Assembly: GCA_963725685.1 (NCBI GenBank)
Contig: CAVRYZ010000008.1
Location: forward strand, 398,709 to 462,708
DNA from: an uncultured Chloroflexia bacterium
Lineage (GTDB): Bacteria; Chloroflexota; Anaerolineae; Anaerolineales; UBA4823
Reading direction: 5' to 3'
DNA length: 64,000 nucleotides
A program made the translations under genes and the position numbers. Below are positions 35,301 to 58,870 of this stretch, piece by piece; the first letter of the stretch is position 1, and the number at the start of each line of letters is the position of its first letter. Under the pieces are notes generated by a model, which was given only the letters and a program-made list of their open reading frames with translations, did no database searches and was not told where the DNA came from.

Positions 35301-35590
35301 GACGGCATCACCAGGCTGGTAATGGCATACTGGATTGGATTGGTGCCCGCACCGGAGTGGGCAACCCAGAGTCCACCGCTCATTACGGTGAGGTCACCCG
35401 CAACTCCACCATAGTCAAAGTTCTCATCCAGAAGTGGGTCGGCCAACACACCCGATTGGTGGCGCACAGCCGGTAATCCACTGGCTTGAGCCTGACTGGT
35501 GGGCGAAAAAGCGGGCAGGATCAGCATGAGCACCATGATGGCTCGAGCTGATATGCTTAAATAATGACGGTACTTCCCTTGTAAGTGCAT
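29351..35590 (-). CDS. Giant secreted multidomain protein (2079 aa)
   Basis: Domain order, N- to C-terminal:
- N-terminal signal/TM segment IMVLMLILPAFSPTSQAQA.
- Two tandem copies of a 218-aa module.
- DUF11-like repeat (also one near the C-terminus, EVSTPELVIPGSLVTYTIVLSNTG).
- OB-fold-like segment FAIQDETGGLYIYP.
- SbsA-Ig-type domains (PPTVTATNPAE.., PPAIVAVSPLE..).
- PHP motif FGDIHNHTSYSDG...ISDHS...NADTHT.
- CARDB-like domain.
- Second OB-fold-like segment LYVQDETGGITVHAP. Confidence 0.85.
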   Translation of the reverse strand: MHLQGKYRHYLSISARAIMVLMLILPAFSPTSQAQASGLPAVRHQSGVLADPLLDENFDYGGVAGDLTVMSGGLWVAHSGAGTNPIQYAITSLVMPSYVSSGIAGSAVFDLSGEDANRTFAEQTGSVVYYASLVNLSMATTAGDYFIHFKNSTTGFAARLFARDSAGALQFGIGTSSTPTYGTTNFAYNTTYLVVAKHDQVSGASDVFVLDSCSSTEPAPLASATGTPLASILGIAIRQGGATTGPNGTVDGIRVADNWADAATCYVPPPLLDENFSYGGSAGDLTVVSAGNWIAHSGAGTNPVQYAPTSLSMPSYASSGIAGSATFTSLGGEDVNRSFAAQSTGTVYFAALVNLSSATTTGDYFLHIKDTGTSNLRARVYAKNTGGQLNFGLFPSSGTPIYGATNFAFGTTYLVVAKYNINNLDSALYVLDTCSYTEPSIPLVSVSLIGTSVAMSAVAIRQGGATSSPAGTVDGIRVATNWAAAARCVDVPPIAEMTIGKTAPSSVSVNETFDYTLSAVNSLGEPATQVVITDSLPISVTFVSASDGGQLIDTNVISWTIPSMADGTTAIRTITVTAPATEGTLVNDMYGVWASNWITGTLGDPVTTSVIDPDILSTIAEARAGGAGWYGTIRGNVTVLPGSFATRSFAIQDETGGLYIYPPYGTVIPPLSLGDLVQIKGSMSVYHALLELSTIDYINWIDTGTVPAPLVTPTGGLAPTQGRLVQIQGTALSMTGTTNKTILINDGSGETSVYIYGTTGIDTSSFTFPMLMRVTGMSGAYDTPQVNPRFQADIVDLRPPTVTATNPAEAALDVNLYRPLEATFSKAMDPASLTPATFTLVDSVGPVSGVVSYDAGSFTASFTPDVSLSPFTVYTATLTTGVTDVYAIPLSAPYEWSFTTGAADITPPAIVAVSPLEDATEVALTANVVITFTEDMHPLSLDGEHFILEGPFGIVPYHMSYNPANFVVTLNPDAKFLATTLYTATVLGTTADWAGLTLGEDKIWSFETSIEPPMLVYFGDIHNHTSYSDGSGTPDQALAAGAAAGFDFMAISDHSYAIDDTEWANTLAAVEAATNSNFVALRGFEYTQGAEGHINVYNTVRHAVRTNTGCSYCDYTPNLEAGSTVMGFYQWASTTGMIGLDPAGTVMQFNHPGWINFNDWTYHPEVSDIARMEEVGNGNGTSYDFSEDEYIRSLDYGWKVGASNNADTHTAYWGTNTDHRTGVLMSGLTKEALLEALRERRTFATEDKNFSLRMKANGAWMGSEIANSGTIQFEIEGDDPDGELASLVQIITDQGEVAALYEPTNASFTWTPLLDISTGVHYYYVRVTQADSDRIVSSPVWTLGSEDISITDLVIQPTIPTIYNPSLLTVRVTNRNIAPRTVTVSMDVNGVFLSSVEVYAPGNGDATANFSWQPVSVGDAVVTAQLIGAPEGDNPDDNTSLLNLTVTDEHLPLILIDAGHGNMNAQGSEMQMLVNDLSDHQYNVLKNLDELTVTDLNPTVVKLLIITAPQTAYTNAELTAIGDYVAAGGSLWLCGLSDYTGSVPWAATVANRENDILAAIESHTGAQINMRMNDDEILEGNDNNGYVFGPIWGDFPSEYTTTIGINVEAMASWSVNSLRGRTPGTPLTADTPDVHIVVQGDLDTGYSDDSYHNPFHTSNTDADGAGDAYIYNPTWVYPNDPPEPPVGALPVPMAAVTQLPNGAGRILLYGDSNDAFTTYAYTAGDGKQNELFNLEAAMWLMGEPLHLSTIAEARAQTELNQPDNLNKLVWIEGEITAAYGEFFNVLYVQDETGGITVHAPAGDIDPTSYTRGTKVRVVGTIGIYNGDTEIEFFEAEMVQVITPSTGEVAPLPFTTYQASLEENQGWLAVITATVTTKVGEDTLFVDDGSGLVRVFLDGYNGDFADIQVYDLVRVTGLVSEDGDGQRIRVRNHGMHPEYSDDVVKLPQELALGISKEVSTPELVIPGSLVTYTIVLSNTGNGLVLQVTLTDVLPEGINFVAFLEDGGATEDGGTISWTGNLPAGADVTVVFTASVDTDFSLYGETIVNTAHYESSILNGEATAVFTVAAPNKVWLPILRK
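34127..35434 (-). repeat. Tandem duplication of a roughly 218-aa (654-nt) N-terminal module inside the giant gene
   Basis: Copy 1 covers aa 53-270 (LLDENFDYGGVAGDLTVMSGGLWVAHSGAGTNPIQYA...GTVDGIRVADNWADAATC). Copy 2 covers aa 271-488 (LLDENFSYGGSAGDLTVVSAGNWIAHSGAGTNPVQYA...GTVDGIRVATNWAAAARC). The copies are collinear over their full length. Confidence 0.8.
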
Positions 35591-40390: not shown

Positions 40391-40437
40391 AAAAAAAACT
40401 GGCAGGTCCAGGATCAATGATTCAAGATCTGCCAGTC
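40391..40437 (-). terminator. Rho-independent terminator at the end of the flx/hdr-like cluster
   Basis: The reverse strand reads CTGGCAG-(23 nt)-CTGCCAG followed by TTTTTTTT, 18 nt after the stop at 40455. Confidence 0.6.
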
Positions 40438-40454
40438 AGACTCGTATAAAATAT

Positions 40455-41306
40455 TTACAGGAAGCTCTCCAGCAAGGAACCTACTTCCGCCATGGTGAAT
40501 ACAGGTCCGTCCACACAGATCAGCTTGGTGCCAAGGTTGCAGCGCCCGCACTTGCCAATCCCACAGTGCATACGCGCTTCCAGCGTGACGTAATTCTGTT
40601 CAGGCAGGAAGTTAAGCTTTTCCACCAGCACGCGATTGACAAAGTGGATCATGATGGGCGGCCCGCAGGTGATGGTGATCGCATTGCGTGGCGAGGGAGC
40701 CACTTTTTCCAGCAGCTGGGTGATCAGACCCACACTGTGGCTCCAGGTTTCGTCAGCCTGATCAACGGTCAGGTGCAGCTCTGTGTCTGGAGTTGCGCGC
40801 CATTCATCATATTCATCCGTGAAGACCAGCATGGATGGGTTCCTGGCTGCCCAGAGAATTTGAAAATACCCATAATCCCTACGGTTGGCCATCACCGACT
40901 GGATCACCGGGCGCAGGGGGGCACCTCCGATGCCTCCCCCGATCACGATCAGGTTCTTTCCCTTAAACTTATCCATGGGGAAGCCATTTCCCATGGGGCC
41001 GCGAACTCCCACCATGTCTCCCACGCCCAGCTCATGCAGGTCGGTGGTGACTGAACCCAGGCGGTTGATGGCGAAATCGATCGTGGCATCCCCATTCTGT
41101 GGGATATTGGCGATCCCAAATGGGGCTTCACCCACTCCGAAGGCTGAGACGAAAGCAAATTGCCCTGGTTTATAGTCTTGGAAGGCCTTGCCACCGCCAT
41201 TAAGCATCTCGACTCGAAAGAGCTTGATCTCTGTGGCGATATCTTTAACCTCGATGAGTTTTCCGAGGTAAGGCAGCATGGGGTTGGTTTCCAGTTTGTC
41301 TGTCAT
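40455..41306 (-). CDS. FAD/NAD(P)-binding ferredoxin-reductase-type subunit with a C-terminal [2Fe-2S] motif (HydG/AsrB/FlxA-like)
   Basis: 283 aa with a PyrK/sulfhydrogenase-gamma-like fold. Motifs are RLGSVT, LIVIGGGIGGAPL and the C-terminal CGIGKCGRC. Confidence 0.8.
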   Translation of the reverse strand: MTDKLETNPMLPYLGKLIEVKDIATEIKLFRVEMLNGGGKAFQDYKPGQFAFVSAFGVGEAPFGIANIPQNGDATIDFAINRLGSVTTDLHELGVGDMVGVRGPMGNGFPMDKFKGKNLIVIGGGIGGAPLRPVIQSVMANRRDYGYFQILWAARNPSMLVFTDEYDEWRATPDTELHLTVDQADETWSHSVGLITQLLEKVAPSPRNAITITCGPPIMIHFVNRVLVEKLNFLPEQNYVTLEARMHCGIGKCGRCNLGTKLICVDGPVFTMAEVGSLLESFL

Positions 41307-41309
41307 CGG

Positions 41310-42311
41310 TTACCTCCTGCCAACATACCCCAATACTTCGGTGATATCCACATTCACCGGGCAGGCATCGATACAACGTCCGCAGCCTGTACATGATACC
41401 GGACCGTAATGGATGGGGAAATAATAGAACTTGCAGAAGAAACGGTTGCGCAGGCGCTGATTCTTCATAAATCGGGGGTTGTGCCCACCTGCCACCCGCC
41501 GGTATGGGATGCCGTTGCACGAATCCCAGCAGCGGATGCGCTCGGATTGATTTTGCCCATTGCCCCCCGCTAGAACCTCGTCGCGTACATCGAAACAACG
41601 GCAGCTGGGGCAAACATAGGCACAGATCCGGCAGCTCAAACAGCGCTCGGCCATCTCAGCCCAAAAGTCATCATTAAACCTGGCTGGCCATACTTCCTTG
41701 GGAGGAACTTTTAGCTCACGTTTTCTGGCATGGGTGGGATGAGGCCGAATCTCAGACAGTCCATCGAAAATGGGAAACTTCTTGCTGATATTCTCGCCCT
41801 TCTCGGTGATGATCTCTGCCACATAACCGCCGTTGGAGGCAGTTAGCATGATATCCATTCCGGTGGGGTCATCCGGAGAGCCACCCACATTGGTACAAAA
41901 GCAGCTGGCACCCATGGATGGGCATGCCAAACCGATGAGGGTGGTGTTCTCTCGACGGCGCGCATAGTATGGATCCACAGGTTCATTCTCAATGAACAGC
42001 GCGTCCAGGGTGAGCAATCCCCTGGCATCACAAGGGCGGACGCCAAAAATAATCGATTTACCCTCTGGGATGGTTTCAGTTAACTTCACCTGCCCGGCAA
42101 GTTTTTCAATCAGCATCAGGCGCTCGGTAGGTGGGAAGAAAACTTCCTTAACTGACATGAATGAACGTACAAAGTCCCATACCACCTCATGCGTATCAGC
42201 CACCGGGCGGTAAAGGATGTTGCCGGCAATGTCCAATGGGGCGATCAGGGTTTGATCATGCGCCAGGCGGTCAAGCCAGGCCGCCAGCTCCTGGTGAGTC
42301 AGGTAGTTCAT
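41310..42311 (-). CDS. 4Fe-4S dicluster subunit (sulfhydrogenase beta/AsrA/FlxB-like)
   Basis: I trimmed the start to ATG 42311 (MNYLTHQELAAWL), which overlaps the upstream stop as ATGA. Motifs are FGVRPCDARG, CFCTNVGG, CLSCRICAYVCPSCRC and CTGCGRCIDACP. Confidence 0.75.
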   Translation of the reverse strand: MNYLTHQELAAWLDRLAHDQTLIAPLDIAGNILYRPVADTHEVVWDFVRSFMSVKEVFFPPTERLMLIEKLAGQVKLTETIPEGKSIIFGVRPCDARGLLTLDALFIENEPVDPYYARRRENTTLIGLACPSMGASCFCTNVGGSPDDPTGMDIMLTASNGGYVAEIITEKGENISKKFPIFDGLSEIRPHPTHARKRELKVPPKEVWPARFNDDFWAEMAERCLSCRICAYVCPSCRCFDVRDEVLAGGNGQNQSERIRCWDSCNGIPYRRVAGGHNPRFMKNQRLRNRFFCKFYYFPIHYGPVSCTGCGRCIDACPVNVDITEVLGYVGRR

Positions 42312-43726
42312 GGCAGGTTCTCCTCTCCGCCCAGGATGGTCACAAAGGGTGGCGGTACGGCTGCCATCCCGGCCTGGTAGCTGAAAATAGACTCCATCTC
42401 CTGCGCCATCTTGCGGTGGATCAGGCTGAGGGGGAGGTCCATCGGGCAGGCGCGTTCGCACTCATTACAGCCCACACAGCGCCCTGCCAGGTGGTATGCT
42501 CTCCCCAGGTGGAAGGCACGCTTTTCATCCACATCAATTCCCATGCCCACCCAGAGTGAATCGTCGCGCTCATACAGGCAGATGGGGCAATCACACATCG
42601 GGCATGCCTGCCGGCAGGCGTAGCAACGAATGCAGCGGTCGAACTGGCTGAGCCAGAAGTTCATCCTTTCAACAGGTGTGAGGGCATTCAGGCGTTCGAT
42701 CCCGGGGTAAACATGCTCGGGGGGGATTTCGCGATAAGTCGTTTCAGGGTCTCCAATGAGCGTATCGTATACCACCGGTGTACGCACGTTACAGGCTGCG
42801 CAGCGCGTCTGGATCGCTCCACTTTTATCGTTATTGAACCCCGCTCCCTGCCGGATGCCATCGCAGGCCATGCCAATCACATACACCTGCTCACGTAAGA
42901 ACCGATTCTCAGCCAGCAGGACGTTTATGGAACGGCTGTCGCATGGTTTTACTACTACGGCTGCTTTGGGTATGCTATCAGGCTTCTTTTTCTTTCCGCC
43001 ATCCGTTCCCCAGCCCAGTTTTTTACTCAAGTAAGCAGTCAGGTTATGGGTGCAGTCCTTGTTCCAGACCAGGCGTTCAACATTTTCGGGCTGGTGGATA
43101 AATGCGGGGCGTGTCCGTCCCCTGGGCCCCACTTCATAACCGATCACACTCTCCACCTGTTTGTTGGCCAGTAAATCTCGGGCGGCTGATCGCAAAGCCT
43201 CGGTTTGCTGTTCGTGAACGGGTGTGTTATAAACGGCATGCTTGGGCTGTTCATCATTAAAAGCTGAATAACGGTGGCTGATAGGTTCCTGTTCCCACAC
43301 AAAATGCGCCTGGCGCTCGGAAACTTTCCAATGGATAGGTCCGAGAGCACGCACAGTATCGGTAAAATCAGTGGTGATGTGCGAGTAACGCTCCCCTTCC
43401 GAAGCAGACACCCAATCAAGCCGGATGCGTTCAGGTTCAAGGCCGGCATAGGCCAGCAAGGCGCGCAAGATAGGCAGACGCTTGGCTGCCCGGTGGTTGC
43501 CGGTATTGTAATGGCACTCGCCGATATGGCAACCCAATACCAGCACACCGTCCGCCCCCTGCTCGAAGGTGCGCATGATCAGCTCGGGTGAAACCCGCCC
43601 TGAGCATGGCACACGGATGTCGCGGATATTAGCCGGAGATTTCAAGCGGGCGATGCCAGCGGTATCGGCACCGGTGTAACTGCACCAGGTGCACAGATAA
43701 GCAATGATCTTGGGTTCAAATGGCAT
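42308..43726 (-). CDS. MvhD-like (hydrogenase delta/FlxD-like) domain fused to an Fe-S cluster domain
   Basis: 472 aa. The N-terminal roughly 135 aa read IIAYLCTWCSYTGADTAG...VPCSGRV...GADGVLVLGCHIGECHY, an MvhD pattern. The C-terminal part has CIRCYACRQACPMCDC and CVGCNECERACP clusters. A strong Shine-Dalgarno (TAGGAGGTGG) is present. Confidence 0.8.
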   Translation of the reverse strand: MPFEPKIIAYLCTWCSYTGADTAGIARLKSPANIRDIRVPCSGRVSPELIMRTFEQGADGVLVLGCHIGECHYNTGNHRAAKRLPILRALLAYAGLEPERIRLDWVSASEGERYSHITTDFTDTVRALGPIHWKVSERQAHFVWEQEPISHRYSAFNDEQPKHAVYNTPVHEQQTEALRSAARDLLANKQVESVIGYEVGPRGRTRPAFIHQPENVERLVWNKDCTHNLTAYLSKKLGWGTDGGKKKKPDSIPKAAVVVKPCDSRSINVLLAENRFLREQVYVIGMACDGIRQGAGFNNDKSGAIQTRCAACNVRTPVVYDTLIGDPETTYREIPPEHVYPGIERLNALTPVERMNFWLSQFDRCIRCYACRQACPMCDCPICLYERDDSLWVGMGIDVDEKRAFHLGRAYHLAGRCVGCNECERACPMDLPLSLIHRKMAQEMESIFSYQAGMAAVPPPFVTILGGEENLP

Positions 43727-43737
43727 GCCACCACCTC

Positions 43738-46700
43738 CTATGGGTTCAGGATCCCGGGAACAACCGGTTCAGCCGCCAATGCCCCGATCATCTCATTGAC
43801 GATTTGTTGATCATCGAAATGAATGAGGGTAATGGCTTTATCACGGCAGGTTGAGGCGCAGGTACCGCAACCTTTACACAGGTATGTATTGACTGAAGCC
43901 ACGCTTTCTTTCAGTTCGATGGCGCTGTATGGGCAGGCATTGACACACAAGCCACAGCCGGCACAACGCTGCAGGTTCACTGAGGCAACCGATGGATCCA
44001 GGGCAATCGTACCCTGATCGAGCAGAGACAGGGCGGCGGCGGCTGCGCCACCTGCCTGAGCCACGCTGTCTGGGATATCCTTCGGGCTCTGGCAGGCGCC
44101 AGCGACATAAATGCCCTCGGTGGTAGTTTCCACAGGAGCTAGCTTGGGATGTTTCTCGAGGAAGAACCCATCCGGGCTGCGGCTGATCCCGAATATGTGA
44201 GCCACCTGGGCAGCATCCGCCTGCGCCTCCAGACCTGTGGATAGGATAACCATATCCACTTCGACGTGGTCCGGCTGACCATGAAAGGCTTCGTCCCATT
44301 TCACAACGAGATGCCCATCCTGAGCCTGGATACTTCTGACATGCCCGTGGTAGAAATTAACCCCTCTTGCACGGGTGCGGTTATAAAACTCTTCGTAGTC
44401 TTTACCGAAGGAGCGCATATCGCGGTAGATTTCATGTACTTCAGCGCCCACATATTCGTGCACCAGCTGCGCCAGTTTGAGAGAGTACATGCAGCATGCC
44501 CGTGAACAATACTCGTTATATTTGTCGTCCCGGCTGCCCACACAGTGCACAATAGCAACCCGCCTGGGTGGCTGGCCATTTTTAAGGGTGACCCTTCCAA
44601 GGGTCGGTCCACCAATATTGATCAGACGCTCAAATTCCATCGAGCTAAGCACATTATCCAGCTGACCATACCCCAGCTCAGGAATGCGGGATGGGTCAAA
44701 ATCTTTGAAACCTGTTGCCAGCACGATTGTGCCTACCTTGAGATCCAGATAGCTATCCTTCATATCATGGTTGATGGCACCGCGTTCACACGCAGACAGG
44801 CATTCCAGGCATTCGGAACAGATACCACAACGCAAACAGCGCTCGGCTTCGGTAATTGCCTCTTCTTCTGTAAATGCCAGATCGACTTCATTGAAGTTGT
44901 TTTCCCGCGCTTTCGCTGGAATGGTGCGGGTCTTGGTACGGGCATTGTCCGTTGCCCAGCCAATTTCCATCTTTTCCGCCACTTCTTCCTTGGTAAAAGT
45001 GGCGATGGGCAGCTTGGGTGGTTCCTGAACTCCTTCAACCCCACGCAGGAAGCGATCGATGCACCTAGCCACATGATGACCTTCTCCGATGGCGTCCACG
45101 ACGAAGAATGTGGTCCCGCGGCGAACGTCACCTGCCACGAACACACCTGGCATGCTGGACATCATTTCATCATCGGTTTCGATACCCATTGAGCTGAGCT
45201 TGCGGATGCGAGTATCGGCAGGCAGGAATGTGAAATCTGGCTGCTGACCGACGGCCCAAATGACCAGGTCACATGGAATTACATGTTCAGTGCCGGGGAT
45301 TTCTTCCACCTGGCGTTTGCCATTGACGATCGCGCCGACCTTGGCTTCCACGCAACGAATCCCAACGATTTGATTTAACTGGATGACAACCTCTTTGAAC
45401 ACCCGGTTGCGGATGATTTCAACCCCCTCTTTGACAGCCTCATCCATCTCGTTGAATGACGCGCGCATACCACGACACACAATTTTCACCTTGGGGCTGC
45501 CCAGTCGAATGGACACGCGGGCAGCATCGAGGGCCACGTCTCCAGCCCCGATCACTGCGATTTCGCGACCACTCAAGTTGAGCTTTTCTCCCAGGCAAGC
45601 CCGGCGAAGCAGGTCAAGGCTGAGCCAGTTATCGGGATGCTCTGTTCCCGGAATGCTCAGCTTCCAGGCACTATGAGCACCTGTGGCAATAATCACCGCT
45701 TCATAACCCTGGTCAAACAGCCCGGGGATATCGTCCACGCGCGTGCTCAGGCGCATTTCCACGCCTTCATCGACAATTTGCTGAATCTCCCAATCCAGGC
45801 GGTCATAGGGCAGGCGGTGAGGTGGAATTCCGACCCGCATCATGCCCCCGGCAATGGGAAGAGAGTCAAAAACTGTGGCACTGTAACCGAAGCGCACCAG
45901 ATCCAAAGCTGCGGTCATGCCAGCCGGACCAGCCCCGATGATGGCTACTTTCTTACCGGTGGGGATGGGAGCGTGTGAAAATGGAGTGCCCACCAGTGAT
46001 TTATCGCGCATGTTGGGCAGCTCGTCACGGTGAGCAAAAGCCCAATCGGCGACGAACCACTTCAACTTCATGATGCTGACGGGTTCATCATATAACCCCC
46101 GACTGCATTGTTCCTCACAGCGACGGTTGCACACCCGCCCGCAAACCGAGGGGAATGGATGCTCGCGCCGGATAGCCCAATAGGCATCGGCATATCGCTT
46201 TTGCTTGATCAGGGCGATATATCCCTGGGCACGCTGGTCGGTGGGGCAGGCAGCCCGGCAGGGTGCGATGCCACGTTTTTCGATTACATATGCCCCGGGA
46301 ACTGACTGAGCTGAATTGCGGTAGATGGCTTTGCGGGTGCTTAACCCCCGGTCAAAGGTGTTAATCACATCCACCGGGCAGACGTCGGCGCACTTTCCGC
46401 AACCTGTGCATTGCGATTCATCCACAAAACGGGCCTTCCTGCGTACTCGCACCTGGTAATTGCCAACATACCCGGATACATTCTCAACTTCACTGTAGGT
46501 GAGCAGGCTGATGTTTTCGTGACGTCCAACGGACGTCGTTTTGGGGGTAAGTATTCAAGCCGCACAGTCTAGCGTGGGAAAGGTCTTGTAGAGCTGGGCC
46601 ATATGCCCGCCGATACTTGGCTCACGCTCCACCATATAGACCTTCTTGCCTGCATCTGCCAGGCGCAGGGCAGCCTCGATCCCGGCAATACCGCCGCCCA

Positions 46701-47148
46701 GCACTAATGCTGATTGTTCCATATCAACCGTGCGCATGTTCAGCGGGCGGTGATGGTGCACCCGGCTGACCGCTGCGCTGACCATGTGTTTGGCTTTTTC
46801 GGTTGCCAGGGCAGGATCGTCCACCACCCATGAGCAGTGCTCACGAATGTTGGCCATCTGGAAGAAGAATGGATTCAACCCACCTTCTTTACAAGCCCTG
46901 CGAAAGGTAGGCTCATGCATCAATGGCGTGCATGAGGCCACTACCACGCGGTTCAATCCCTGCTCGCGGATATCCTGCTTGATCAAGTCTTGACCAGGGT
47001 CGGAGCACATATAGGTGTAATCGCGTGCCAGAACAACATTTTCCAAATTTCGGGCATACTCCACCACGGCAGTTACATCCACCTTGGCAGCGATATTGGT
47101 ACCGCAGTGACATATGTAGACCCCGGTCTTTATTTTGGAGAGGTTCAT
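43738..47148 (-). CDS. hdrA: HdrA-like flavoprotein (1136 codons) with an in-frame TGA (candidate Sec198) and an inserted NfnB/GltD-like NAD(P)H-binding module
   Basis: Track ORFs 46555..47148 and 43738..46452 share one frame (102-nt gap, no other stop). The read-through is ...KTFPTLDCAA-TGA(46557..46555)-ILTPKTTSVGRHENISLLTYSEVENVSGYVGNYQVRVRRKARFVDESQCTGCGKC.... The insert at about 45040-46272 carries the GltD-type Cys motifs and two dinucleotide loops (IIGAGPAGMTAA, VIGAGDVALDAA). Confidence 0.8.
46521..46537 (-). promoter_or_regulatory. Candidate SECIS-like hairpin downstream of the HdrA(1136) TGA
   Basis: The reverse strand reads GACGUCC-guu-GGACGUC. The perfect 7-bp stem starts 18 nt after the UGA, with a GUU apical loop. 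Confidence 0.5.
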
Positions 47149-49169
47149 GCCACCTCCTCTTCAAGCAACACGGGCTTTTTCAAAACCGACATGATTCCAA
47201 CGATTTCTGCCAGGATTTGATCCTGGGTAAAGCCATTCTGGATCGGTGCATGCACCAGGCAAGCGGCCACGCAGGCACCGCAACCTTTGCATAACACCTC
47301 GTTCACGTGTGCCACGATATGCCCTTCTAACTCCACCATATCGATCGCATGGTATGGGCATTGGCTCTCACAGGTACGGCATCCACAGCATATGGTTTGG
47401 TCAATATAGGTGGTGAAAGGTTCCAGGGTGACGTGCCCGGCATCCATAAGCGAAAGGGCTGCCGCGGCGGCTGCGGCACCTTGGGCTACGCTATCAGGAA
47501 TATCTTTGGGACTCTGGCAGGTGCCTGCCAGGTAGACGCCGTCGGTGGTCGTTTCCACCGGAGCCAGCTTGGGATGTTTTTCTAGGAAAAAGCCATCTGG
47601 ACCGCGGCTGATGCTGAAGGTTTGCGCCACATGGGCCGCATCCGGTTGGGGTTCTATCCCTGTGCTCAGCACAACCATATCCACCAGCTGCTCGTTGGGT
47701 TCACCTGTGAACAGGTCGGTTGAGGTGATTTTTAGCTGTCCATTATCTGGTGTGACCTGTAAACCACTCCCACCGGCTTCCTGGTCAAAGCGGGTGAAGT
47801 GCACCCCTGACCGTGCCACACGCTCGTAAAAAGCTTCGTAGCCTTTACCAAAGGCGCGCATATCGCGGTAATACTCGTGTACTTCTGCGCCCACATAATC
47901 GCATATCAACTGTGCCAGCTTGAGCGAGTACATGCAGCACACCCGTGAGCAATATTCGTGATACTCTTTGTTCCGGCTGCCAACACAGTGTACGATAGCA
48001 ACCCTTTCCGGTTTACGGCCGTCCTTGAGCCGTACCTCCCCGGTGGTGGGCCCACCGGTGTTGATCAAACGCTCCAATTCCATGCTGGTGAGCACATTAT
48101 CCAGCTCACCATAACCGTATTGTTGAATCCGGCGGGCTTCAAAATCCTTGAACCCCGTCGCCAGGATGATTGCTCCAACTTCCAGGTCAAGATGCTCTTC
48201 CTGCTGCTCGAAATTTATTGATCCGGTCTGGCAGAACTTTTCACACGCCCGGCATTTGCCCTTTTGGAAATAGGCACAATTTTGGGTGTCTATGACCGGA
48301 ACACGCGGCACGGCCTGTGCGAACGGGAAATATATCGCCGAGCGATTACCCAATCCCAAATCGAACTCGGATGGGATCTTTTTCCAAGGGCATTTTTCAA
48401 CGCAGGTACCGCATCCTGTGCAGGTGCTCTCGTCCACGTAGCGTGGTTTTCGGCGCACTTTTACGGTGAAATTGCCTACATATCCGGAAACGGATTCGAC
48501 CTCGCTGTAGCTCAGCAGGGTGATGTTTTCGTGGCGTCCAACGGACACCATTTTGGGGGTGAGAATTCAGGCCGCACAGTCGAGGGTAGGAAAGGTCTTA
48601 TAAAGTTGGGTCATATGCCCGCCGATGCTCGGCTGCCTCTCCACCAGGTAAACATGCTTGCCGGTGTCAGCCAGGCGCAGGGCGGCCTCAATCCCGGCAA
48701 TACCCGCACCCACCACCATGGCGCTTTGTTTCATCTCCACCTGGCGGGCTTCCAGCGGCTTTTGGTATTGCACCCGCCTGACAGCGGCAGACAGGAGGGC
48801 TTTAGCTTTGTGGGTCGCGCTGGGCATGTCTTCCGACACCCATGAGCACTGCTCGCGGATGTTGGTCATATGGAATAAAAATGGATTTAACCCCGCATCA
48901 GCACAAGCTCGCCGGAAGGTGGCTTCATGCATCAAAGGCGAACAAGAAGCCACTACAATACGATCCAGGCCCTCATTACGGATATCATCCTTGATGAGAG
49001 CCTGGCCAGGGTCGGAACACATATAAGCATAATGGCGGGCAACCAACACATTCTCCAATGAGGCGGCATGGTTGGTCACGGCTTCAACATCCACCATCGA
49101 GGCGATATTGGTGCCGCAATGGCAGATATAAACCCCGATCTTGGGGCTGCCTTTATTGGTTGGTTTCAT
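47145..49169 (-). CDS. hdrA: Heterodisulfide reductase subunit A-like flavoprotein (674 aa) with an in-frame TGA (candidate Sec201)
   Basis: Track ORFs 48567..49169 and 47145..48551 share one frame (15-nt gap). The read-through is ...KTFPTLDCAA-TGA(48569..48567)-ILTPKMVSVGRHENITLLSYSEVESVSGYVGNF.... The N-terminal Cys domain, FAD loop VVGAGIAGIEAAL and ferredoxin motifs are intact. The stop overlaps the next hdrA start as ATGA. Confidence 0.85.
48533..48549 (-). promoter_or_regulatory. Candidate SECIS-like hairpin downstream of the HdrA(674) TGA
   Basis: The reverse strand reads GGUGUCC-guu-GGACGCC. The 7-bp stem includes one G-U pair. Position and loop are the same as in the paralog, with compensatory base changes. 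Confidence 0.5.
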
Positions 49170-49367: not shown

Positions 49368-49385
49368 TTGTGCAAGGTTGCACAA
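49368..49385. promoter_or_regulatory. Perfect palindrome TTGTGCAA-GG-TTGCACAA upstream of the hdr cluster (Rex- or CRP/FNR-type operator candidate)
   Basis: 18-bp dyad about 200 nt upstream of hdrA start 49169. It overlaps a possible reverse-strand promoter (TTGTGC-N18-TATAGA). It resembles the Rex box TTGTGAA-N4-TTCACAA and the CRP site TGTGA-N6-TCACA. Confidence 0.4.
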
Positions 49386-53820: not shown

Positions 53821-53882
53821 AATAATACACGATTGTTTTGATTTTGACAAGGGTAAAAAAGGAATTGTAAGACAACTTGCAG

Positions 53883-53955
53883 CGCCCCAGGCGGGAGTCG
53901 AACCCACAACCTAAGCGTTAGGAGTGCTTCGCTCTATCCTTTGAGCTACTGGGGC
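53883..53955 (-). tRNA. tRNA-Arg (anticodon CCU)
   Basis: I folded this by hand from the reverse strand: GCCCCAG-TA-GCTC-AAAGGATA-GAGC-G-AAGCA-CTCCTAA-CGCTT-AGGTT-GTGGG-TTCGACT-CCCGC-CTGGGGC-G. The cloverleaf is canonical, with U33 and A37. There is one A31/C39 mismatch and no encoded CCA. Confidence 0.85.
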
Positions 53956-54044: not shown

Positions 54045-54758
54045 TTAATCCACTCTTCCGGTTGCAATGGCCGCCTTTACTTCACCAATCGCCTGGGTAA
54101 CTTCAATCTCACGCGGGCAACACTCGGTGCAGTTGAAGACCGTATGACAACGGTACACCCCAAACTGGTCGTTTAAGATGCGCAATCGATCCGCTGCAGC
54201 CCTATCGCGGCTATCAAATATGAAGCGGTGGGCAGCCACTATGGCAGCGGGTCCGACGTATTGGTCGCTCGCCCAAAATATGGGGCAAGATGTGGTGCAG
54301 CAGGCGCACAGGATGCACTTGGTGGTATCGTCAAAGCGCTCGCGCTCATCAATACTTTGCAGGCGTTCCGTTGGCGGTGGGGTTTCATCATTGATGAAAT
54401 ATGGTTTGACCGACTTGAAATGGGCAAAGAACTGCTCCATGTCTACGATAAGGTCTTTTATCAGACGTAAGCCCAACAAAGGCTCGACGGTGATCTTGTC
54501 GGTGTGGAAGTCCTTCAGCAATGCCTTGCAGGCCAGGTAATTCCGGCCATTAATTCGCATGGCATCAGAACCGCAAACGCCATGCGCGCAGGACCGCCGG
54601 AAGGATAGTGTGCCGTCAAAAGAGCCTTTGATGTATTCCAACATATCCAGGACGCGATCCGTGGGCTGAGCTTCCATCTTATACGTTTCGTAATGAGGCT
54701 TCTTATCTTTTTCAGGATTAAAACGGAAGACTTTGACTGTTACTTGCATGGCTGCCAC
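54045..54758 (-). CDS. sdhB: Succinate dehydrogenase/fumarate reductase iron-sulfur subunit
   Basis: 237 aa. The 2Fe-2S motif is SCAHGVCGSDAMRINGRNYLAC. The 4Fe-4S/3Fe-4S motifs are CILCACCTTSCP and CHTVFNCTECCP. Confidence 0.9.
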   Translation of the reverse strand: MAAMQVTVKVFRFNPEKDKKPHYETYKMEAQPTDRVLDMLEYIKGSFDGTLSFRRSCAHGVCGSDAMRINGRNYLACKALLKDFHTDKITVEPLLGLRLIKDLIVDMEQFFAHFKSVKPYFINDETPPPTERLQSIDERERFDDTTKCILCACCTTSCPIFWASDQYVGPAAIVAAHRFIFDSRDRAAADRLRILNDQFGVYRCHTVFNCTECCPREIEVTQAIGEVKAAIATGRVD

Positions 54759-54763
54759 CTCGT

Positions 54764-56575
54764 TTAATAAACTCGTTCCTTAGGCTGGAATTTTGTAAGC
54801 ACGACTGGTTTGTAACCCAGCTCGATCTGACCATCGGACTTTACCCATGAGAGCGTGTGCTTTAACCAATTGACGTCGTCACGTTTTGGATAATCATCCC
54901 GGGCATGTGCCCCACGGCTCTCAGTGCGAGCCAGTGCACAGACTGTGACAACCTCAGCAATTTCGAGCAGGTTGCCCAGCTCCCAGATATTGATCATTTC
55001 CGTGTTGAAGATATTCCCCTGGTCGTGTAATGGGATGTGCTTGTAGCGCTCGCGCAACTCACGCACCGTCTCCAGGGCTGATTGCATCCCCTCGCCGGTA
55101 CGGAACATGCCCACGCTATCCATCATCACGGCTTTCATCTTGCCGCTGACTTCCAGGATTTTCTCGTTACCCTGGGCATTGCGAATGGCATCGATTTGTG
55201 CCCGGGTAAATTCGGTCGGGTCAGCTGGCAGAGGTTGAAAAGCTGCACCCTGGGAGAATTCGGCTGCACGCAGCCCGGAGTGCTTGCCAAATACGATCAG
55301 ATCAAGCAGCGAATTGGTGCCAAGCCGGTTGGCTCCATGGACGGAAACGCAAGCCACTTCACCGGCGGCATATAAGCCCGGCATGACGGTGTTATTAGAA
55401 TCGATTACCACTTCACCGAACTTGTTCGTCGGAATGCCACCCATCGTATAGTGAGCCGTTGGCTGTACCGGCATCGGCTGAGCCACCGGGTCTACTCCTA
55501 AATAAGTGCGGGCAAAATCCACGATATCGGGCAGCTTGGCGATGATTTCCTCACCCGTCAGGATATATGGAGTTCCATCCAGACGTTTACGCCCATCCAG
55601 GGCGGCATACTTGTTTACCGTCTCGGGTCTGACGTCTAAATACAGGTAATTCTGTCCATTGATCCCGTTACCGGCTTTTATCTCCAGATACATAGCCCGG
55701 CTGATCACGTCGCGGGAGGCCAGGTCTTTCACACGGGGAGCATACCTTTCCATGAATCGTTCGCCCTTGCCGTTGATCAGCACCCCTCCCTCTCCGCGCA
55801 CACCCTCGGTGATCAGGATACCCAGCTTATAGATCCCCGTGGGGTGGAATTGGAAGAATTCCATATCTTCCATCGGTATGCCGTGCCGCATGGTGACGGC
55901 AATTCCATCACCCGTGTAGGCATAGGCGTTGGAGGTGATATCCCACACCCGTCCATGCCCGCCGGTGGCGAGAATGACTGACTTGGCGTGGAAGACGTGC
56001 AGCTCGGAGGTGCCGAGTTCAATCGCCACCACACCTGCGGTAACCCCATTGACTACCAGCAGGTCCACCACCTGGAATTCATCGTAAAAATTGACATTAT
56101 TCTTCAGACATTGCTGGTACAGCGTTTGCAGGATCATGTGACCGGTGCGGTCTGCTGCGTAGCATGCCCGTCTGACGGGTTTTCCAGTCACATTATTGGT
56201 ATGCCCACCAAATGGACGTTGGGCAATCTTGCCTTCTTTTGTGCGTGAAAAGGGTAATCCATAATGCTCGAGCTCATATACTGCCTGTACGGCTTCATAG
56301 CACATGAACTCAATGGCATCCTGATCGCCTAAATAGTCGCTGCCTTTGACTGTGTCAAAAGTGTGCCATTCCCAATGGTCCTCTTCATCGTTACCCAGGG
56401 CTGCACCCACCCCGCCTTGAGCGGTGCCGGTATGTGAACGGGTTGGGTACAGCTTGCTGATCACAGCCGTGTTGGCGGTCTTCGAAGCGTACAGGGCTGC
56501 CATCAAGCCAGCGCCGCCCGCTCCGACTACAATTACCTCAAATTGATGTATTTTCATAATGTCAGGGCTCCTCAC
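54764..56575 (-). CDS. sdhA: Succinate dehydrogenase/fumarate reductase flavoprotein subunit
   Basis: 603 aa with VIVVGAGGAGLMAA, the covalent-FAD His region RSHTGTAQGG, HPTG and the C-terminal RTESRGAHARDD. The start may be M7 (56557). Confidence 0.9.
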   Translation of the reverse strand: MRSPDIMKIHQFEVIVVGAGGAGLMAALYASKTANTAVISKLYPTRSHTGTAQGGVGAALGNDEEDHWEWHTFDTVKGSDYLGDQDAIEFMCYEAVQAVYELEHYGLPFSRTKEGKIAQRPFGGHTNNVTGKPVRRACYAADRTGHMILQTLYQQCLKNNVNFYDEFQVVDLLVVNGVTAGVVAIELGTSELHVFHAKSVILATGGHGRVWDITSNAYAYTGDGIAVTMRHGIPMEDMEFFQFHPTGIYKLGILITEGVRGEGGVLINGKGERFMERYAPRVKDLASRDVISRAMYLEIKAGNGINGQNYLYLDVRPETVNKYAALDGRKRLDGTPYILTGEEIIAKLPDIVDFARTYLGVDPVAQPMPVQPTAHYTMGGIPTNKFGEVVIDSNNTVMPGLYAAGEVACVSVHGANRLGTNSLLDLIVFGKHSGLRAAEFSQGAAFQPLPADPTEFTRAQIDAIRNAQGNEKILEVSGKMKAVMMDSVGMFRTGEGMQSALETVRELRERYKHIPLHDQGNIFNTEMINIWELGNLLEIAEVVTVCALARTESRGAHARDDYPKRDDVNWLKHTLSWVKSDGQIELGYKPVVLTKFQPKERVY

Positions 56576-58192: not shown

Positions 58193-58195
58193 TTT

Positions 58196-58855: not shown

Positions 58856-58870
58856 GAAAAGGAGACAGCC

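What the first reader, a model, noticed from the sequence alone, without database searches (positions are those of the whole stretch)
40455..49169. Flx/Hdr-like five-gene redox cluster without HdrBC: putative bifurcating module with an unknown electron acceptor
- Gene order on the reverse strand is hdrA(Sec), hdrA-NfnB fusion(Sec), MvhD-FeS fusion, HydB/AsrA/FlxB-like 4Fe-4S protein, HydG/AsrB/FlxA-like FAD/NAD(P)/2Fe-2S protein.
- The genes are tightly coupled (ATGA overlaps at 47145-47148 and 42308-42311, 3-11 nt gaps elsewhere). The cluster ends with a hairpin followed by a T8 run.
- The composition recalls the FlxABCD-HdrABC system of sulfate reducers and MvhADG/HdrABC.
- No CCG-domain HdrB/HdrC, hydrogenase or formate dehydrogenase lies in the cluster or its flanks (recO upstream, a TfoX-domain gene downstream).
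- Which substrate receives the electrons is therefore open.
Basis: partly seen in the sequence, partly recalled or inferred. Interest (0 to 1): 0.7.

Follow-up and report, generated by a model that had tools for sequence, protein, structure and literature searches.

The report
Hdr-Flx redox operon lacking HdrBC
A five-gene operon conserved across many uncultured Anaerolineales bacteria encodes a selenium-containing iron-sulfur flavoprotein complex, related to a known energy-saving "electron-splitting" enzyme but missing that enzyme's usual acceptor subunits and carrying an NADPH-binding module instead, so what it reduces is still untested.

Summary
Five tightly packed minus-strand genes (40455-49169) encode:
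- HdrA with Sec;
- an HdrA carrying an NfnB/GltD-type insert (the published "HdrL" type), also with Sec;
- an MvhD fusion protein;
- a HydB/AsrA-like FeS protein;
- a HydG/AsrB-like FAD/NAD(P)/[2Fe-2S] protein.

The operon ends in a hairpin followed by T8.

The host is an Anaerolineales (Chloroflexota) lineage, not a sulfate reducer. The same five genes occur in the same order in 79 species-level loci (55-97% identity for the MvhD fusion). Their flanks differ, so this is a self-contained operon and not a fragment.

The genes are co-linear orthologues (37-50% identity) of hdrCBA-flxDCBA clusters, i.e. the FlxABCD-HdrABC family. Here hdrC and hdrB are missing and an HdrL gene is present. No HdrB or HdrC gene lies in the 64 kb window, and only 1 of the 79 loci has them.

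A conserved Rex-type palindrome lies upstream of the operon.

My best mechanistic reading is inferred, not shown: an HdrA-based bifurcating/confurcating enzyme that links NADH, NADPH and ferredoxin, like Nfn or Stn. The main rival is a disulfide or other acceptor module encoded elsewhere in the genome.

I rate it a new variant of a known kind, of moderate interest.

The parts
49368..49385 (.). Perfect palindrome TTGTGCAACCTTGCACAA, a candidate Rex-type operator (TTGTG-N8-CACAA), about 200 nt upstream of the G1 start codon.
   Evidence: It is the only match in the 64 kb window, where 0.07 are expected. The same motif lies within 400 nt upstream of the first gene in 28 of 55 related loci. In nearly all of those loci it is the only exact match in about 21 kb. 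A score of at least 11 of 14 is reached in 37 of 54 upstream regions, against 15 of 395 random 400-nt windows. The published Rex consensus is TTGTGAANNNNTTCACAA (PMC6391272).
47145..49169 (-). G1: HdrA, 674 aa, with selenocysteine at codon 201 (TGA at 48567-48569). It has the N-terminal [4Fe-4S] domain, the FAD domain, an intact inserted ferredoxin domain and the C-terminal ferredoxin domain.
   Evidence: Translation. Pfam. NCBIfam HdrA2 model, 808 bits over residues 10-661. It is 45-47% identical to the HdrA of hdrCBA-flxDCBA clusters.
48532..48550 (-). SECIS-like hairpin of G1, starting 19 nt after the U of the UGA.
   Evidence: Folding gives -11.9 kcal/mol. Across 97 distinct homologous sequences the stem pairs 90-97 times out of 97, and synonymous sites are frozen only inside the stem.
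43738..47148 (-). G2: HdrL-type HdrA, 1136 aa, with selenocysteine at codon 198 (TGA at 46555-46557).
   Evidence: Translation. Pfam and NCBIfam. PDB sequence search: HdrA chains match residues 5-291 and the C-terminal part. HdrL is described in PMC2702500. The same architecture is described for ANME-1 HdrA9-11 in PMC9012536.
46521..46537 (-). SECIS-like hairpin of G2.
   Evidence: Folding gives -11.0 kcal/mol. Relative to G1 the stem carries compensating changes: GACGUCC/GGACGUC against GGUGUCC/GGACGCC.
44779..46296 (-). NfnB/GltD/StnC-type module inside G2 (about aa 285-790): two [4Fe-4S] clusters, FAD and an NAD(P)H-binding fold. [quoted passage not shown]
   Evidence: Fer4_20 plus Pyr_redox_2. 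Best PDB matches are 9bov_A (7e-75), 9n5u_A, the NfnA subunit of NfnABC (3e-70), 8oh5_C, the StnC subunit (1e-62), and 4ylf_B, T. maritima NfnB (5e-56).
42308..43726 (-). G3: MvhD ([2Fe-2S]) fused to an FeS module of the FdhB/ElpB/FrhB fold. It corresponds to FlxD plus FlxC.
   Evidence: FlpD domain, 1.5e-47. It matches the MvhD chains of Hdr complexes, and its C-terminus matches the FeS domain of FdhB. Residues 243-400 are distantly similar to G4 (24% identity, E 9e-9). AF2 model with pLDDT 69; Foldseek hits 5odh_D (MvhD), and 8rvu_E and 7bkb_E (Elp/Fdh beta subunits) at E about 1e-11. Nineteen cysteines are invariant (C12, C15, C41, C66, C71, C262, C288, C309, C312, C365, C368, C371, C375, C378, C380, C383, C417, C420, C423, C427) and C225 is nearly invariant in 36 homologues.
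41310..42311 (-). G4: FlxB-like FeS protein of 333 aa (HydB/AsrA family). Its start codon overlaps the G3 stop codon (ATGA).
   Evidence: Fer4_22, 1e-27. NCBIfam ShyB, HydB and AsrA models score about 160 bits, far below their cut-offs. The best solved structure is the sulfhydrogenase I beta subunit, 9nez_B, at 5e-43. It is 37-42% identical to the FlxB-position genes of L080 and L081.
40455..41306 (-). G5: FlxA-like FAD/NAD(P)H/[2Fe-2S] protein of 283 aa (HydG/AsrB/PyrK/NfnA family).
   Evidence: NAD_binding_1 plus DHODB_Fe-S_bind. Best solved structure is the sulfhydrogenase I gamma subunit, 9nez_C, at 2.6e-48. NfnA/NfnS chains match at about 1e-13. It is 48-50% identical to the FlxA-position genes.
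40391..40437 (-). Intrinsic terminator: a hairpin followed by T8.
   Evidence: Sequence. Fold of -17.7 kcal/mol; 1 of 200 shuffles folds as well.

Best explanation
**What is shown**
- This is a self-contained five-gene operon, conserved across Anaerolineales.
- It encodes a soluble multi-flavin, multi-FeS complex orthologous to the Hdr-Flx (FlxABCD-HdrABC) family.
- G5 (FlxA-like), G4 (FlxB-like) and G3 (FlxC-like plus MvhD) form an NAD(P)H-linked electron-input chain that ends in the MvhD [2Fe-2S] cluster. In solved Hdr complexes MvhD docks on HdrA.
- Two HdrA paralogues, both selenoproteins, provide the bifurcating FAD core.
- The disulfide-reducing HdrBC module is absent.
- One HdrA instead carries a StnC/NfnB-type NADP(H)-FAD-2[4Fe-4S] module, grafted into the inserted ferredoxin domain. 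That domain is the low-potential exit of HdrA.

**What is inferred**
- G1 and G2 form a heterodimer.
- The complex couples three pools: NAD(H) at G5, NADP(H) at the G2 insert, and ferredoxin at the intact ferredoxin domain of G1.
- That makes it an Nfn/Stn-like ferredoxin-dependent transhydrogenase: NADH + reduced Fd + 2 NADP+ <-> NAD+ + oxidised Fd + 2 NADPH.
- If the complex has no further partner, this is the only thermodynamically sensible coupled reaction among those three carriers.
- Expression is probably controlled by an NADH-sensing Rex-type repressor.

**Confidence split**
- Identity as an Hdr-Flx variant without HdrBC: about 0.9.
- The transhydrogenase mechanism: about 0.35-0.4.
For: **Domain content**
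- Domains of all five proteins.

**Conservation and orthology**
- Gene order G1-G5 is kept in all 79 species-level loci that hold enough sequence. No flanking gene family is shared by more than 16 of the 79 loci.
- Gene-for-gene orthology to hdrCBA-flxDCBA clusters.
- HdrB and HdrC HMMs find nothing in the window and hit only L072 among the 79 loci.

**The NADP(H) module**
- The insert is most similar to the GltD module of StnC and of the Bfu-type NfnA subunit.
- In Stn that module is an experimentally shown NADPH-oxidising input module that does not bifurcate. It replaces the hydrogenase subunit of HydABC (PMC10482914).
- In HdrA the low-potential branch runs through the inserted ferredoxin domain (PMC13518236). 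That is exactly where the module sits.
- The same double-site idea and an NADPH link were proposed for ANME-1 HdrA-NfnB fusions (PMC9012536).

**The input chain**
- G5 and G4 are closest to the sulfhydrogenase I gamma and beta subunits, an NAD(P)-linked electron-transfer pair.
- The FeS part of G3 has the fold of the Fdh/Elp beta subunits that feed MvhD in solved Hdr complexes.

**Regulation**
- A Rex-type operator is conserved upstream. This fits an enzyme that acts on the NADH pool.

**Modular variants**
- In L030, mvhD-fdhA-fdhB sits directly upstream of the operon, and L071 carries an FdhA homologue upstream. With a lower-potential donor such as formate, the built-in pyridine-nucleotide modules could serve as the high-potential acceptor branch.
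Against: - No biochemical or expression data exist for any member. I found none in the open literature.
- HdrBC genes need not be adjacent to hdrA. In Methanosarcina acetivorans the Hdr2 genes are not co-localised (PMC6085437).
- I could not scan whole genomes for CCG proteins.
- L072 shows that some Anaerolineales do have hdrCB, though linked to a different HdrL paralogue.
- Both HdrA paralogues keep their C-terminal ferredoxin domain, a cluster-bearing domain whose redox partner is unassigned in the absence of HdrC.
- NADH versus NADPH specificity could not be assigned for either nucleotide site.
- Where the NADP(H) module sits, on the low-potential exit, is awkward for a simple donor or acceptor role and may imply a more complex mechanism.
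- The operator could belong to a CRP/FNR-type regulator and not to Rex. Positions 6 and 13 differ from the Rex consensus.
- No rex gene lies in any held locus.
Confidence: 0.4

Rival explanations
1. The complex is a classical Hdr-Flx enzyme whose high-potential acceptor module is encoded elsewhere in the genome. That module could be HdrBC, HdrD, or another thiol/disulfide or protein-disulfide reductase. NAD(P)H would be bifurcated to ferredoxin plus a disulfide-type acceptor. HdrL would then simply add a second, NADPH-specific, electron input.
For: - All characterised or genetically studied relatives use HdrBC-type acceptors: Mvh-, Fdh- and Elp-HdrABC structures, and Flox/Hdr and HdrABC/HdrL in sulfate reducers (PMC5947623).
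- hdrA and hdrBC can be unlinked (PMC6085437).
- L072 has hdrC-hdrB next to the operon.
- G1 and G2 both keep the C-terminal ferredoxin domain.
Against: - Tight synteny of five genes across 79 species with no CCG gene in 78 of them is unusual for an obligate subunit. The orthologous clusters in other phyla keep hdrCB glued to hdrA.
- In L072 the hdrCB genes head their own hdrL'-mvhD-flxC-like cluster.
- No close HdrB homologue could be placed on the long contigs that carry the operon. This test was truncated at 71% identity and is therefore inconclusive.
Confidence: 0.3
2. The five proteins form a modular electron hub, not a fixed enzyme. An HdrA/HdrL core with two MvhD docking sites would accept interchangeable input modules: the Flx-like NAD(P)H module encoded in cis, or a formate dehydrogenase or hydrogenase encoded elsewhere. 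It would then deliver electrons to ferredoxin and NAD(P)+.
For: - L030 carries mvhD-fdhA-fdhB directly upstream, and L071 carries an FdhA homologue upstream.
- L035 carries a sulfhydrogenase-like gene set directly downstream.
- Some loci have an extra HdrL copy (L003, L006, L079, L037, L042).
- Exchangeable input modules on Hdr are documented in methanogens (PMC13518236).
Against: - These additions are seen in only a few of the 79 loci.
- The core operon already has a complete input chain.
- The adjacency in L035 may be coincidental.
Confidence: 0.15
3. The complex does not bifurcate. It would be a plain NAD(P)H:ferredoxin or NADH:NADPH oxidoreductase, or an electron-transfer scaffold serving an unrelated reductase. 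The HdrA-type flavins would act only as electron relays.
For: - Non-bifurcating HdrA relatives exist in the literature (from general knowledge of Qmo and sulfur-oxidiser Hdr-like systems; not tested here).
- The GltD-type flavin in StnC has lost bifurcation (PMC10482914).
Against: - Both HdrA paralogues keep the full cofactor-binding set of bifurcating HdrA, including the Cys-x-x-Sec pair next to the FAD.
- Maintaining two selenoproteins and roughly 20 FeS clusters for an uncoupled reaction seems costly.
Confidence: 0.1

Closest known systems
FlxABCD-HdrABC (Hdr-Flox) NADH dehydrogenase/heterodisulfide reductase of Desulfovibrio vulgaris and many anaerobes (Ramos et al. 2015, as cited in PMC5947623 and PMC6315080)
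   Same: - The subunit types match: FlxA-like (FAD/NAD(P)/[2Fe-2S]), FlxB- and FlxC-like FeS proteins, FlxD (MvhD) and HdrA.
- The genes are co-linear and 37-50% identical to hdrCBA-flxDCBA clusters from other phyla.
- The complex is soluble; no membrane subunit is encoded.
   Different: - hdrB (CCG) and hdrC are absent.
- A second HdrA of the HdrL type is present.
- FlxC and FlxD are fused. The fusion also occurs in L080-L083.
- Both HdrA are selenoproteins.
- The host is Anaerolineales, and no sulfate-reduction genes lie nearby.
HdrL, the large HdrA with a glutamate-synthase/NfnB-like insertion: Desulfobacterium autotrophicum HdrL1-3, Syntrophobacter fumaroxidans HdrABC/HdrL, ANME-1 HdrA9-11
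   Same: - An HdrA core is interrupted in the inserted ferredoxin domain by a roughly 500-aa NfnB-like module.
- An mvhD gene follows.
- Selenocysteine occurs in some members.
- A tandem hdrL/hdrA arrangement is reported for one D. autotrophicum locus (PMC2702500; PMC9012536; PMC5947623).
   Different: - The published cases that give the gene context link HdrL to HdrABC, DsrABC or formate dehydrogenase subunits.
- Here HdrL is linked to a full Flx module and to no CCG protein.
Mvh-, Fdh- and Elp-HdrABC complexes of methanogens (PDB 5ODC, 7BKB, 8RVU, 9SW2)
   Same: - HdrA and MvhD are close sequence relatives (E about 1e-200 and 1e-45).
- Sec sits at the Sec197 position.
- The FeS part of G3 has the Fdh/Elp beta-subunit fold that feeds MvhD.
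   Different: - There is no hydrogenase, formate dehydrogenase or F420 catalytic subunit.
- There is no HdrBC.
- The likely donor is NAD(P)H.
Ferredoxin-dependent transhydrogenases NfnAB (NfnSL) and StnABC / NfnABC (Bfu type)
   Same: - The G2 insert is homologous to NfnB and even more similar to the GltD module of StnC and Bfu-type NfnA.
- G5 belongs to the NfnA/PyrK family.
- The predicted substrates are the same: NADH, NADPH and ferredoxin.
   Different: - There is no separate nfnAB gene pair.
- There are no NuoE/NuoF-like (HydC/HydB-type) subunits.
- The core is HdrA. It would be a third architecture for this reaction, if it catalyses the reaction at all.
Pyrococcus sulfhydrogenase I beta/gamma (HydB/HydG, PDB 9NEZ) and anaerobic sulfite reductase AsrA/AsrB
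   Same: They are the best solved-structure and NCBIfam matches for G4 and G5. They form an NAD(P)H-FAD-[2Fe-2S]-[4Fe-4S] transfer pair.
   Different: - Scores are far below the family cut-offs (about 165 bits against 650-750).
- No hydrogenase alpha/delta subunits or AsrC lie in the operon.

Membership tests
FlxABCD-HdrABC (Hdr-Flox) | FlxA: FAD/NAD(P)H-binding protein with a C-terminal [2Fe-2S] cluster | tested here: met
   G5 has NAD_binding_1 plus DHODB_Fe-S_bind. It is 48-50% identical to the FlxA-position genes of L080 and L081.
FlxABCD-HdrABC (Hdr-Flox) | FlxB and FlxC FeS proteins, and FlxD (MvhD-like) | tested here: met
   G4 has Fer4_22. G3 is FlpD plus an FeS module paralogous to G4. 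G3 and G4 are 37-42% identical to their counterparts. FlxC and FlxD are fused here.
FlxABCD-HdrABC (Hdr-Flox) | HdrA encoded next to the flx genes | tested here: met
   G1 and G2. G1 is 45-47% identical to the HdrA of L080 and L082.
FlxABCD-HdrABC (Hdr-Flox) | HdrB (two CCG domains) and HdrC in the cluster | tested here: not met
   HMMs built from the HdrB and HdrC of L080, L082 and L072 find nothing in the 64 kb window. Among the 79 related loci only L072 scores, and there the genes belong to a separate cluster. Pfam scans of the window show no CCG domain. Presence elsewhere in the genome was not tested.
FlxABCD-HdrABC (Hdr-Flox) | NADH-dependent reduction of ferredoxin and a (hetero)disulfide | not testable with these tools
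   This needs enzyme assays.
HdrL (HdrA with NfnB/GltD insert) | HdrA core with a GltD/NfnB-like NAD(P)H-FAD module inserted in the inserted ferredoxin domain | tested here: met
   G2 residues 7-303 and 779-1131 align to HdrA positions 3-308 and 298-670. Residues about 285-790 align to NfnB and StnC. The definition comes from PMC2702500 and PMC9012536.
HdrL (HdrA with NfnB/GltD insert) | Followed by an mvhD gene | tested here: met
   G3 starts 11 nt after the G2 stop codon.
NfnAB transhydrogenase | Separate NfnB (GltD-like) and NfnA (PyrK-like) subunits encoded as a two-gene unit | tested here: not met
   The NfnB-like part is an internal module of HdrA. G5 is PyrK-family but is closest to HydG/AsrB, and it pairs by synteny with G4.
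NfnAB transhydrogenase | Ferredoxin-dependent NADH:NADP+ transhydrogenase activity | not testable with these tools
   This needs enzyme assays.
StnABC / NfnABC (Bfu family) | GltD-type NADPH module combined with HydB/HydC (NuoF/NuoE)-type subunits | tested here: not met
   A GltD module of this subtype is present. No NuoE- or NuoF-like genes lie in the operon or among the window ORFs scanned.
Mvh/Fdh/Elp-HdrABC of methanogens | A catalytic donor subunit ([NiFe] hydrogenase, FdhA or F420 site) plus HdrBC | tested here: not met
   None is in the window. FdhAB is present upstream only in L030, with an FdhA homologue upstream in L071.
Sulfhydrogenase / AsrABC | A beta/gamma (or AsrA/AsrB) pair together with catalytic alpha/delta subunits or AsrC; scores above the NCBIfam cut-offs | tested here: not met
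   G4 and G5 score 160-207 bits against cut-offs of 289-750. There is no catalytic partner in the operon.
Bacterial selenoprotein (HdrA-Sec) | An in-frame UGA at a Cys position of homologues, followed by a conserved stem-loop | tested here: met
   TGA at 115 of 122 sites, and TGC/TGT at 7. This is the Sec197 position. The hairpin shows frozen synonymous sites and one compensatory pair.
Bacterial selenoprotein (HdrA-Sec) | selA/selB/selD and tRNA-Sec in the genome | not testable with these tools
   The only tRNA in the window is tRNA-Arg. Anaerolineales single-cell genomes are reported to carry Sec machinery (PMC4959059).
Rex regulon | An operator matching TTGTGAANNNNTTCACAA in the promoter region | tested here: inconclusive
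   The site matches 12 of the 14 specified positions, with a symmetric A-to-C / T-to-G deviation. It is strongly conserved upstream of the operon. A CRP/FNR-type box is not excluded.
Rex regulon | A rex gene in the genome, and NADH-responsive binding | not testable with these tools
   No Rex homologue lies in the window or the loci. The query was a B. subtilis Rex sequence recalled from memory.

The most novel reading that the evidence does not exclude
The operon encodes a third, HdrA-based architecture for ferredoxin-dependent NADH/NADPH transhydrogenation. In it an HdrA-type bifurcating flavin is wired directly, through its low-potential ferredoxin domain, to an NfnB/StnC-type flavin. Two bifurcation-type modules would then be coupled inside one complex, with no diffusible ferredoxin between them and no disulfide substrate.
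Probability: 0.25. Interest if true: 0.8.

Novelty: new variant of a known kind. Interest (0 to 1): 0.55.

Why it matters
**Ecological reach.** Anaerolineales are among the most abundant fermenters in sediments, soils and anaerobic digesters, yet their redox balancing is poorly understood. This operon is conserved in at least 79 species-level genomes and has its own conserved regulator site. It is therefore likely to be a central redox module of the group.

**Enzymology.** HdrA has so far been characterised only together with HdrBC-type disulfide reductases. An HdrA core that works without them, using built-in pyridine-nucleotide modules, would widen the known repertoire of flavin-based electron bifurcation. 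It would also give a compact system for asking what the Cys/Sec pair next to the HdrA flavin does.

**If HdrBC is simply encoded elsewhere,** the finding reduces to a gene-order variant of Hdr-Flx.

Tried and rejected
**Rejected**
- A fragment of a larger operon, or a misassembly. The same five genes with the same borders occur on 79 independent contigs, some longer than 1 Mb, with unrelated flanks.
- A sulfate-reducer context (DsrC, Qmo, Tmc). All close relatives are Chloroflexota, and the window holds sugar-catabolism genes, sdhAB and Rieske/cytochrome b genes.
- Pseudogenes caused by the in-frame stops. The TGA and its hairpin are conserved.
- Sulfhydrogenase or AsrABC membership. Scores are far below the cut-offs and there is no catalytic subunit.

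**Led nowhere**
- An Rfam scan of the operon and its leader gave only a chance-level hit.
- The consensus terminator scan missed the real terminator because of its long loop. Direct folding found it.
- A search for a rex gene in the window and loci found nothing.
- The Ravcheev 2012 Rex regulon paper is not held.
- The exact-sequence look-up of the window's G3 is not on record.
- I tried to place HdrB homologues on the long contigs that carry the operon by matching contig lengths. There were no matches, but the list stops at 71% identity, so this is inconclusive.
- Cluster-member names gave little taxonomy beyond one Riflebacteria hit.
- Literature searches found no description of this Anaerolineales cluster.
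- I could not decide NADH versus NADPH specificity from sequence.

Full report
**1. The observation**

The region 40455-49169 carries five genes on the minus strand.

| Gene | Coordinates | Size | Content |
|---|---|---|---|
| G1 | 47145-49169 | 674 aa | complete HdrA |
| G2 | 43738-47148 | 1136 aa | HdrA interrupted by a roughly 500-aa GltD/NfnB-type module |
| G3 | 42308-43726 | 472 aa | MvhD (FlpD) followed by an FeS part |
| G4 | 41310-42311 | 333 aa | Fer4_22 protein of the HydB/AsrA type |
| G5 | 40455-41306 | 283 aa | FAD/NAD(P)H/[2Fe-2S] protein of the HydG/AsrB/PyrK type |

- Domain assignments come from Pfam and NCBIfam.
- The ATGA overlaps at G1/G2 and G3/G4 are real.
- So is the terminal hairpin plus T8.
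- recO lies upstream and a TfoX_N gene lies downstream.

**2. The two in-frame TGA codons are selenocysteine codons**

- Both lie in the motif TLDCAA-U-ILTP.
- In 122 equivalent sites of related loci the codon is TGA 115 times and TGC/TGT 7 times.
- The position is the Sec197 of Methanococcus maripaludis HdrA. There it forms a Cys-Sec pair next to the bifurcating FAD (PMC13518236).
- A 7-8 bp hairpin starts 19-20 nt after the UGA.
- In 97 distinct homologous sequences the stem pairs in 90-97 cases.
- Synonymous third positions inside the stem are invariant, while those outside it and in the loop vary freely.
- One pair shows GC-to-AT double changes.
- This is what a bacterial SECIS element looks like.

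**3. Host and conservation**

- A scan of one genome per species with G3 returned 147 relatives. The best 79 loci are all Chloroflexota MAGs, mostly labelled Anaerolineales or Anaerolineae, at 55-97% identity.
- In every locus with enough sequence the order G1-G2-G3-G4-G5 is kept.
- The window's own flanks (recO, rplI and others upstream; TfoX, EamA and alanine racemase downstream) are shared only by the closest relatives.
- Clustering all flanking ORFs shows that no neighbour family is present in more than 16 of the 79 loci. The ones I inspected among the commonest are housekeeping or uncharacterised ORFs, not redox enzymes.
- The operon is therefore a self-contained unit. It is neither a fragment of a bigger conserved operon nor an assembly artefact.
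- Some relatives carry an extra HdrL copy: L003, L006, L079, L037 and L042.

**4. Which family it belongs to**

- More distant homologues of G3 (33-47% identity) sit in clusters of the form hdrC-hdrB(CCG)-hdrA-[MvhD/FeS fusion]-[Fer4_22 protein]-[NAD_binding_1/2Fe-2S protein].
  - Examples are L080 (an abundant unnamed organism) and L082 (Candidatus Riflebacteria).
  - L081 begins with an HdrB fragment.
- This is the composition of the published FlxABCD-HdrABC, or Hdr-Flox, system in reverse gene order.
- The window's proteins match these clusters gene for gene:

| Window gene | Counterpart | Identity |
|---|---|---|
| G1 | HdrA | 45-47% |
| G3 | FlxD/C | 33-40% |
| G4 | FlxB | 37-42% |
| G5 | FlxA | 48-50% |

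- What differs is that hdrC and hdrB are missing and a second hdrA, of the HdrL type, is present.
- HMMs built from three HdrB and three HdrC sequences find nothing in the 64 kb window.
- Among the 79 Anaerolineales loci they hit only L072. There hdrC-hdrB head a separate cluster with their own 1544-aa HdrL paralogue and mvhD.
- Pfam scans of the window ORFs of at least 150 aa, plus the TfoX_N ORF, show the following:
  - sugar catabolism genes;
  - a GH3 enzyme;
  - a 2079-aa surface protein;
  - sdhAB;
  - a Rieske/cytochrome b/c set;
  - housekeeping genes.
- They show no CCG protein, hydrogenase, formate dehydrogenase or DsrC.

**5. The individual parts**

*G2.*
- It is the published HdrL type, an HdrA whose inserted ferredoxin domain is interrupted by an NfnB-like module.
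- It was named in Desulfobacterium autotrophicum (PMC2702500).
- It was seen in Syntrophobacter fumaroxidans HdrABC/HdrL (PMC5947623).
- It was described for ANME-1 HdrA9-11, with the suggestion of two bifurcation sites and an NADPH link (PMC9012536).
- Against solved structures the insert is closest to the GltD modules of 9bov_A, the Bfu-type NfnA subunit (9n5u_A) and StnC (8oh5_C). Classical NfnB comes next.
- The match includes the trailing 'NNF-EV...EA-RCL-CG-C' segment. In classical NfnB that segment is N-terminal.
- In Stn this module was shown to be a non-bifurcating NADPH-oxidising input that functionally replaces a hydrogenase subunit (PMC10482914).

*G3.*
- The N-terminus is MvhD.
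- The rest is distantly paralogous to G4.
- In an AlphaFold model (pLDDT 69) it has the fold of the Fdh/Elp beta subunits, which deliver electrons to MvhD in solved Hdr complexes. It also resembles FrhB.

*G4 and G5.* They are closest to the beta and gamma subunits of Pyrococcus sulfhydrogenase I, an NAD(P)-linked transfer pair.

**6. Regulation**

- A perfect palindrome, TTGTGCAACCTTGCACAA, lies at 49368-49385, about 200 nt upstream of G1.
- It is the only TTGTG-N8-CACAA site in the window, where 0.07 are expected.
- The motif recurs within 400 nt upstream of the operon in 28 of 55 related loci. It is almost always the only such site in the roughly 21 kb locus.
- With a looser score, 37 of 54 upstream regions stand out, against 15 of 395 random windows.
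- It matches the Rex operator consensus TTGTGAANNNNTTCACAA (PMC6391272) at 12 of 14 positions.
- This suggests control by the NADH/NAD+ ratio. A CRP/FNR-type regulator is not excluded, and no rex gene could be checked.

**7. How it most likely works**

*Shown*
- The subunit set, its cofactor motifs and its orthology.
- The absence of HdrBC in cis.
- The position of the NADP(H)-type module on HdrA's inserted ferredoxin domain.

*Established for relatives*
- MvhD feeds the HdrA flavin.
- The inserted ferredoxin domain is the low-potential exit.
- HdrC and HdrB form the high-potential exit (PMC13518236).

*Inferred*
- G5, G4 and G3 form an NAD(P)H-linked chain to the HdrA flavin.
- G1 and G2 form a heterodimeric core.
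- With NAD(H), NADP(H) and ferredoxin as the only substrates, the only thermodynamically sensible coupled reaction is the Nfn/Stn reaction.
- The replacement of HdrBC by a pyridine-nucleotide module, the Rex-type site, and the loci where a formate dehydrogenase module is added upstream (mvhD-fdhA-fdhB in L030, an FdhA homologue in L071) all fit NAD(P)+ serving as the higher-potential partner.
- I put about 0.9 on 'Hdr-Flx variant without HdrBC' and about 0.35-0.4 on the transhydrogenase mechanism.

**8. Rivals**

- The main rival is that an HdrBC, HdrD or other acceptor is encoded elsewhere.
  - hdrA and hdrBC are unlinked in some organisms (PMC6085437).
  - L072 shows the lineage can carry hdrCB.
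  - Both HdrA paralogues keep their C-terminal ferredoxin domain.
  - I could not scan whole genomes, and an indirect attempt was inconclusive.
- A modular-hub reading and a non-bifurcating reading are less likely, but they are not excluded.

**9. Novelty**

- Each part is known: HdrL, the Flx proteins, and Sec-HdrA.
- Variant Hdr/Flox clusters with two hdrA genes have also been reported, though with an HdrD in place of HdrBC (PMC5947623).
- I found no description of this HdrA-HdrL-FlxDCBA operon without any CCG protein, nor of its spread in Anaerolineales, in the open literature that I could search.
- The most relevant review, Appel et al. 2021, is not held.
- I therefore rate it a new variant of a known kind. 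It is real and widespread but uncharacterised, and of moderate interest.
- Interest would rise sharply if the complex proves to work without a disulfide acceptor.

Noticed in passing
window 49368-49385: Perfect 18-bp palindrome TTGTGCAACCTTGCACAA, a Rex-type box, in the leader region of the operon. It is conserved upstream of the orthologous operons in many Anaerolineales.
   Followed up: partly
L072 11873-19280: Directly downstream of the five-gene operon, this Anaerolineales MAG has a second cluster: hdrC, hdrB (CCG), a 1544-aa HdrL paralogue (about 42% identical to G2, with additional FAD/NAD(P)-binding Rossmann-type stretches), mvhD and a FlxC-like gene. It resembles the HdrABC/HdrL cluster of Syntrophobacter.
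   Followed up: partly
L030 784-4470 and L071 1892-3589: In L030 an mvhD, a molybdopterin formate dehydrogenase alpha subunit and an FdhB (FrhB/FdhB family) gene lie directly upstream of G1. L071 has an FdhA homologue upstream. This suggests an optional formate-oxidising input module.
   Followed up: partly
L003, L006, L079 (G1-G2'-G2) and L037, L042 (G2'-G1-G2): Some relatives carry an additional HdrL copy inside or in front of the operon. It is 62-78% identical to G2.
   Followed up: no
L035 13692-16575: Downstream of the operon lie an AsrA/HydB-like gene, an AsrB/HydG-like gene and a [NiFe]-hydrogenase small-subunit gene (Oxidored_q6). Together they look like a sulfhydrogenase-type group 3 hydrogenase, paralogous to G4 and G5.
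   Followed up: no
L020 1548-4422 and 13351-14802: Three stand-alone GltD/NfnB-like genes (57-63% identical to each other) flank the operon in this MAG.
   Followed up: no
window 54045-56575 (-) and 57707-60103 (+): Succinate dehydrogenase/fumarate reductase flavoprotein and FeS subunits. Divergently placed are Rieske protein, cytochrome b, and a cytochrome b C-terminal/cytochrome c fusion gene. The host therefore has respiratory-chain components and is not a pure fermenter.
   Followed up: no
window 29351-35590 (-): A 2079-aa ORF with Big_5 and DUF11 repeats, probably a large cell-surface protein.
   Followed up: no
window 281-24790: A large sugar and sugar-acid catabolism island. It holds FGGY kinases, xylose-isomerase-like TIM-barrel proteins, GFO/IDH/MocA oxidoreductases, KDPG aldolase, a cupin-type GPI, Zn-dependent alcohol dehydrogenases, a GntR/UTRA regulator, a ROK protein and an Old Yellow Enzyme homologue. 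A GH3 glycosidase follows at 25004-26920.
   Followed up: no
window 60110-63114 (+): An FHA-domain protein (680 aa) followed by a PP2C phosphatase, which looks like a Ser/Thr phospho-signalling pair. A tRNA-Arg(CCT) lies at 53882-53955.
   Followed up: no
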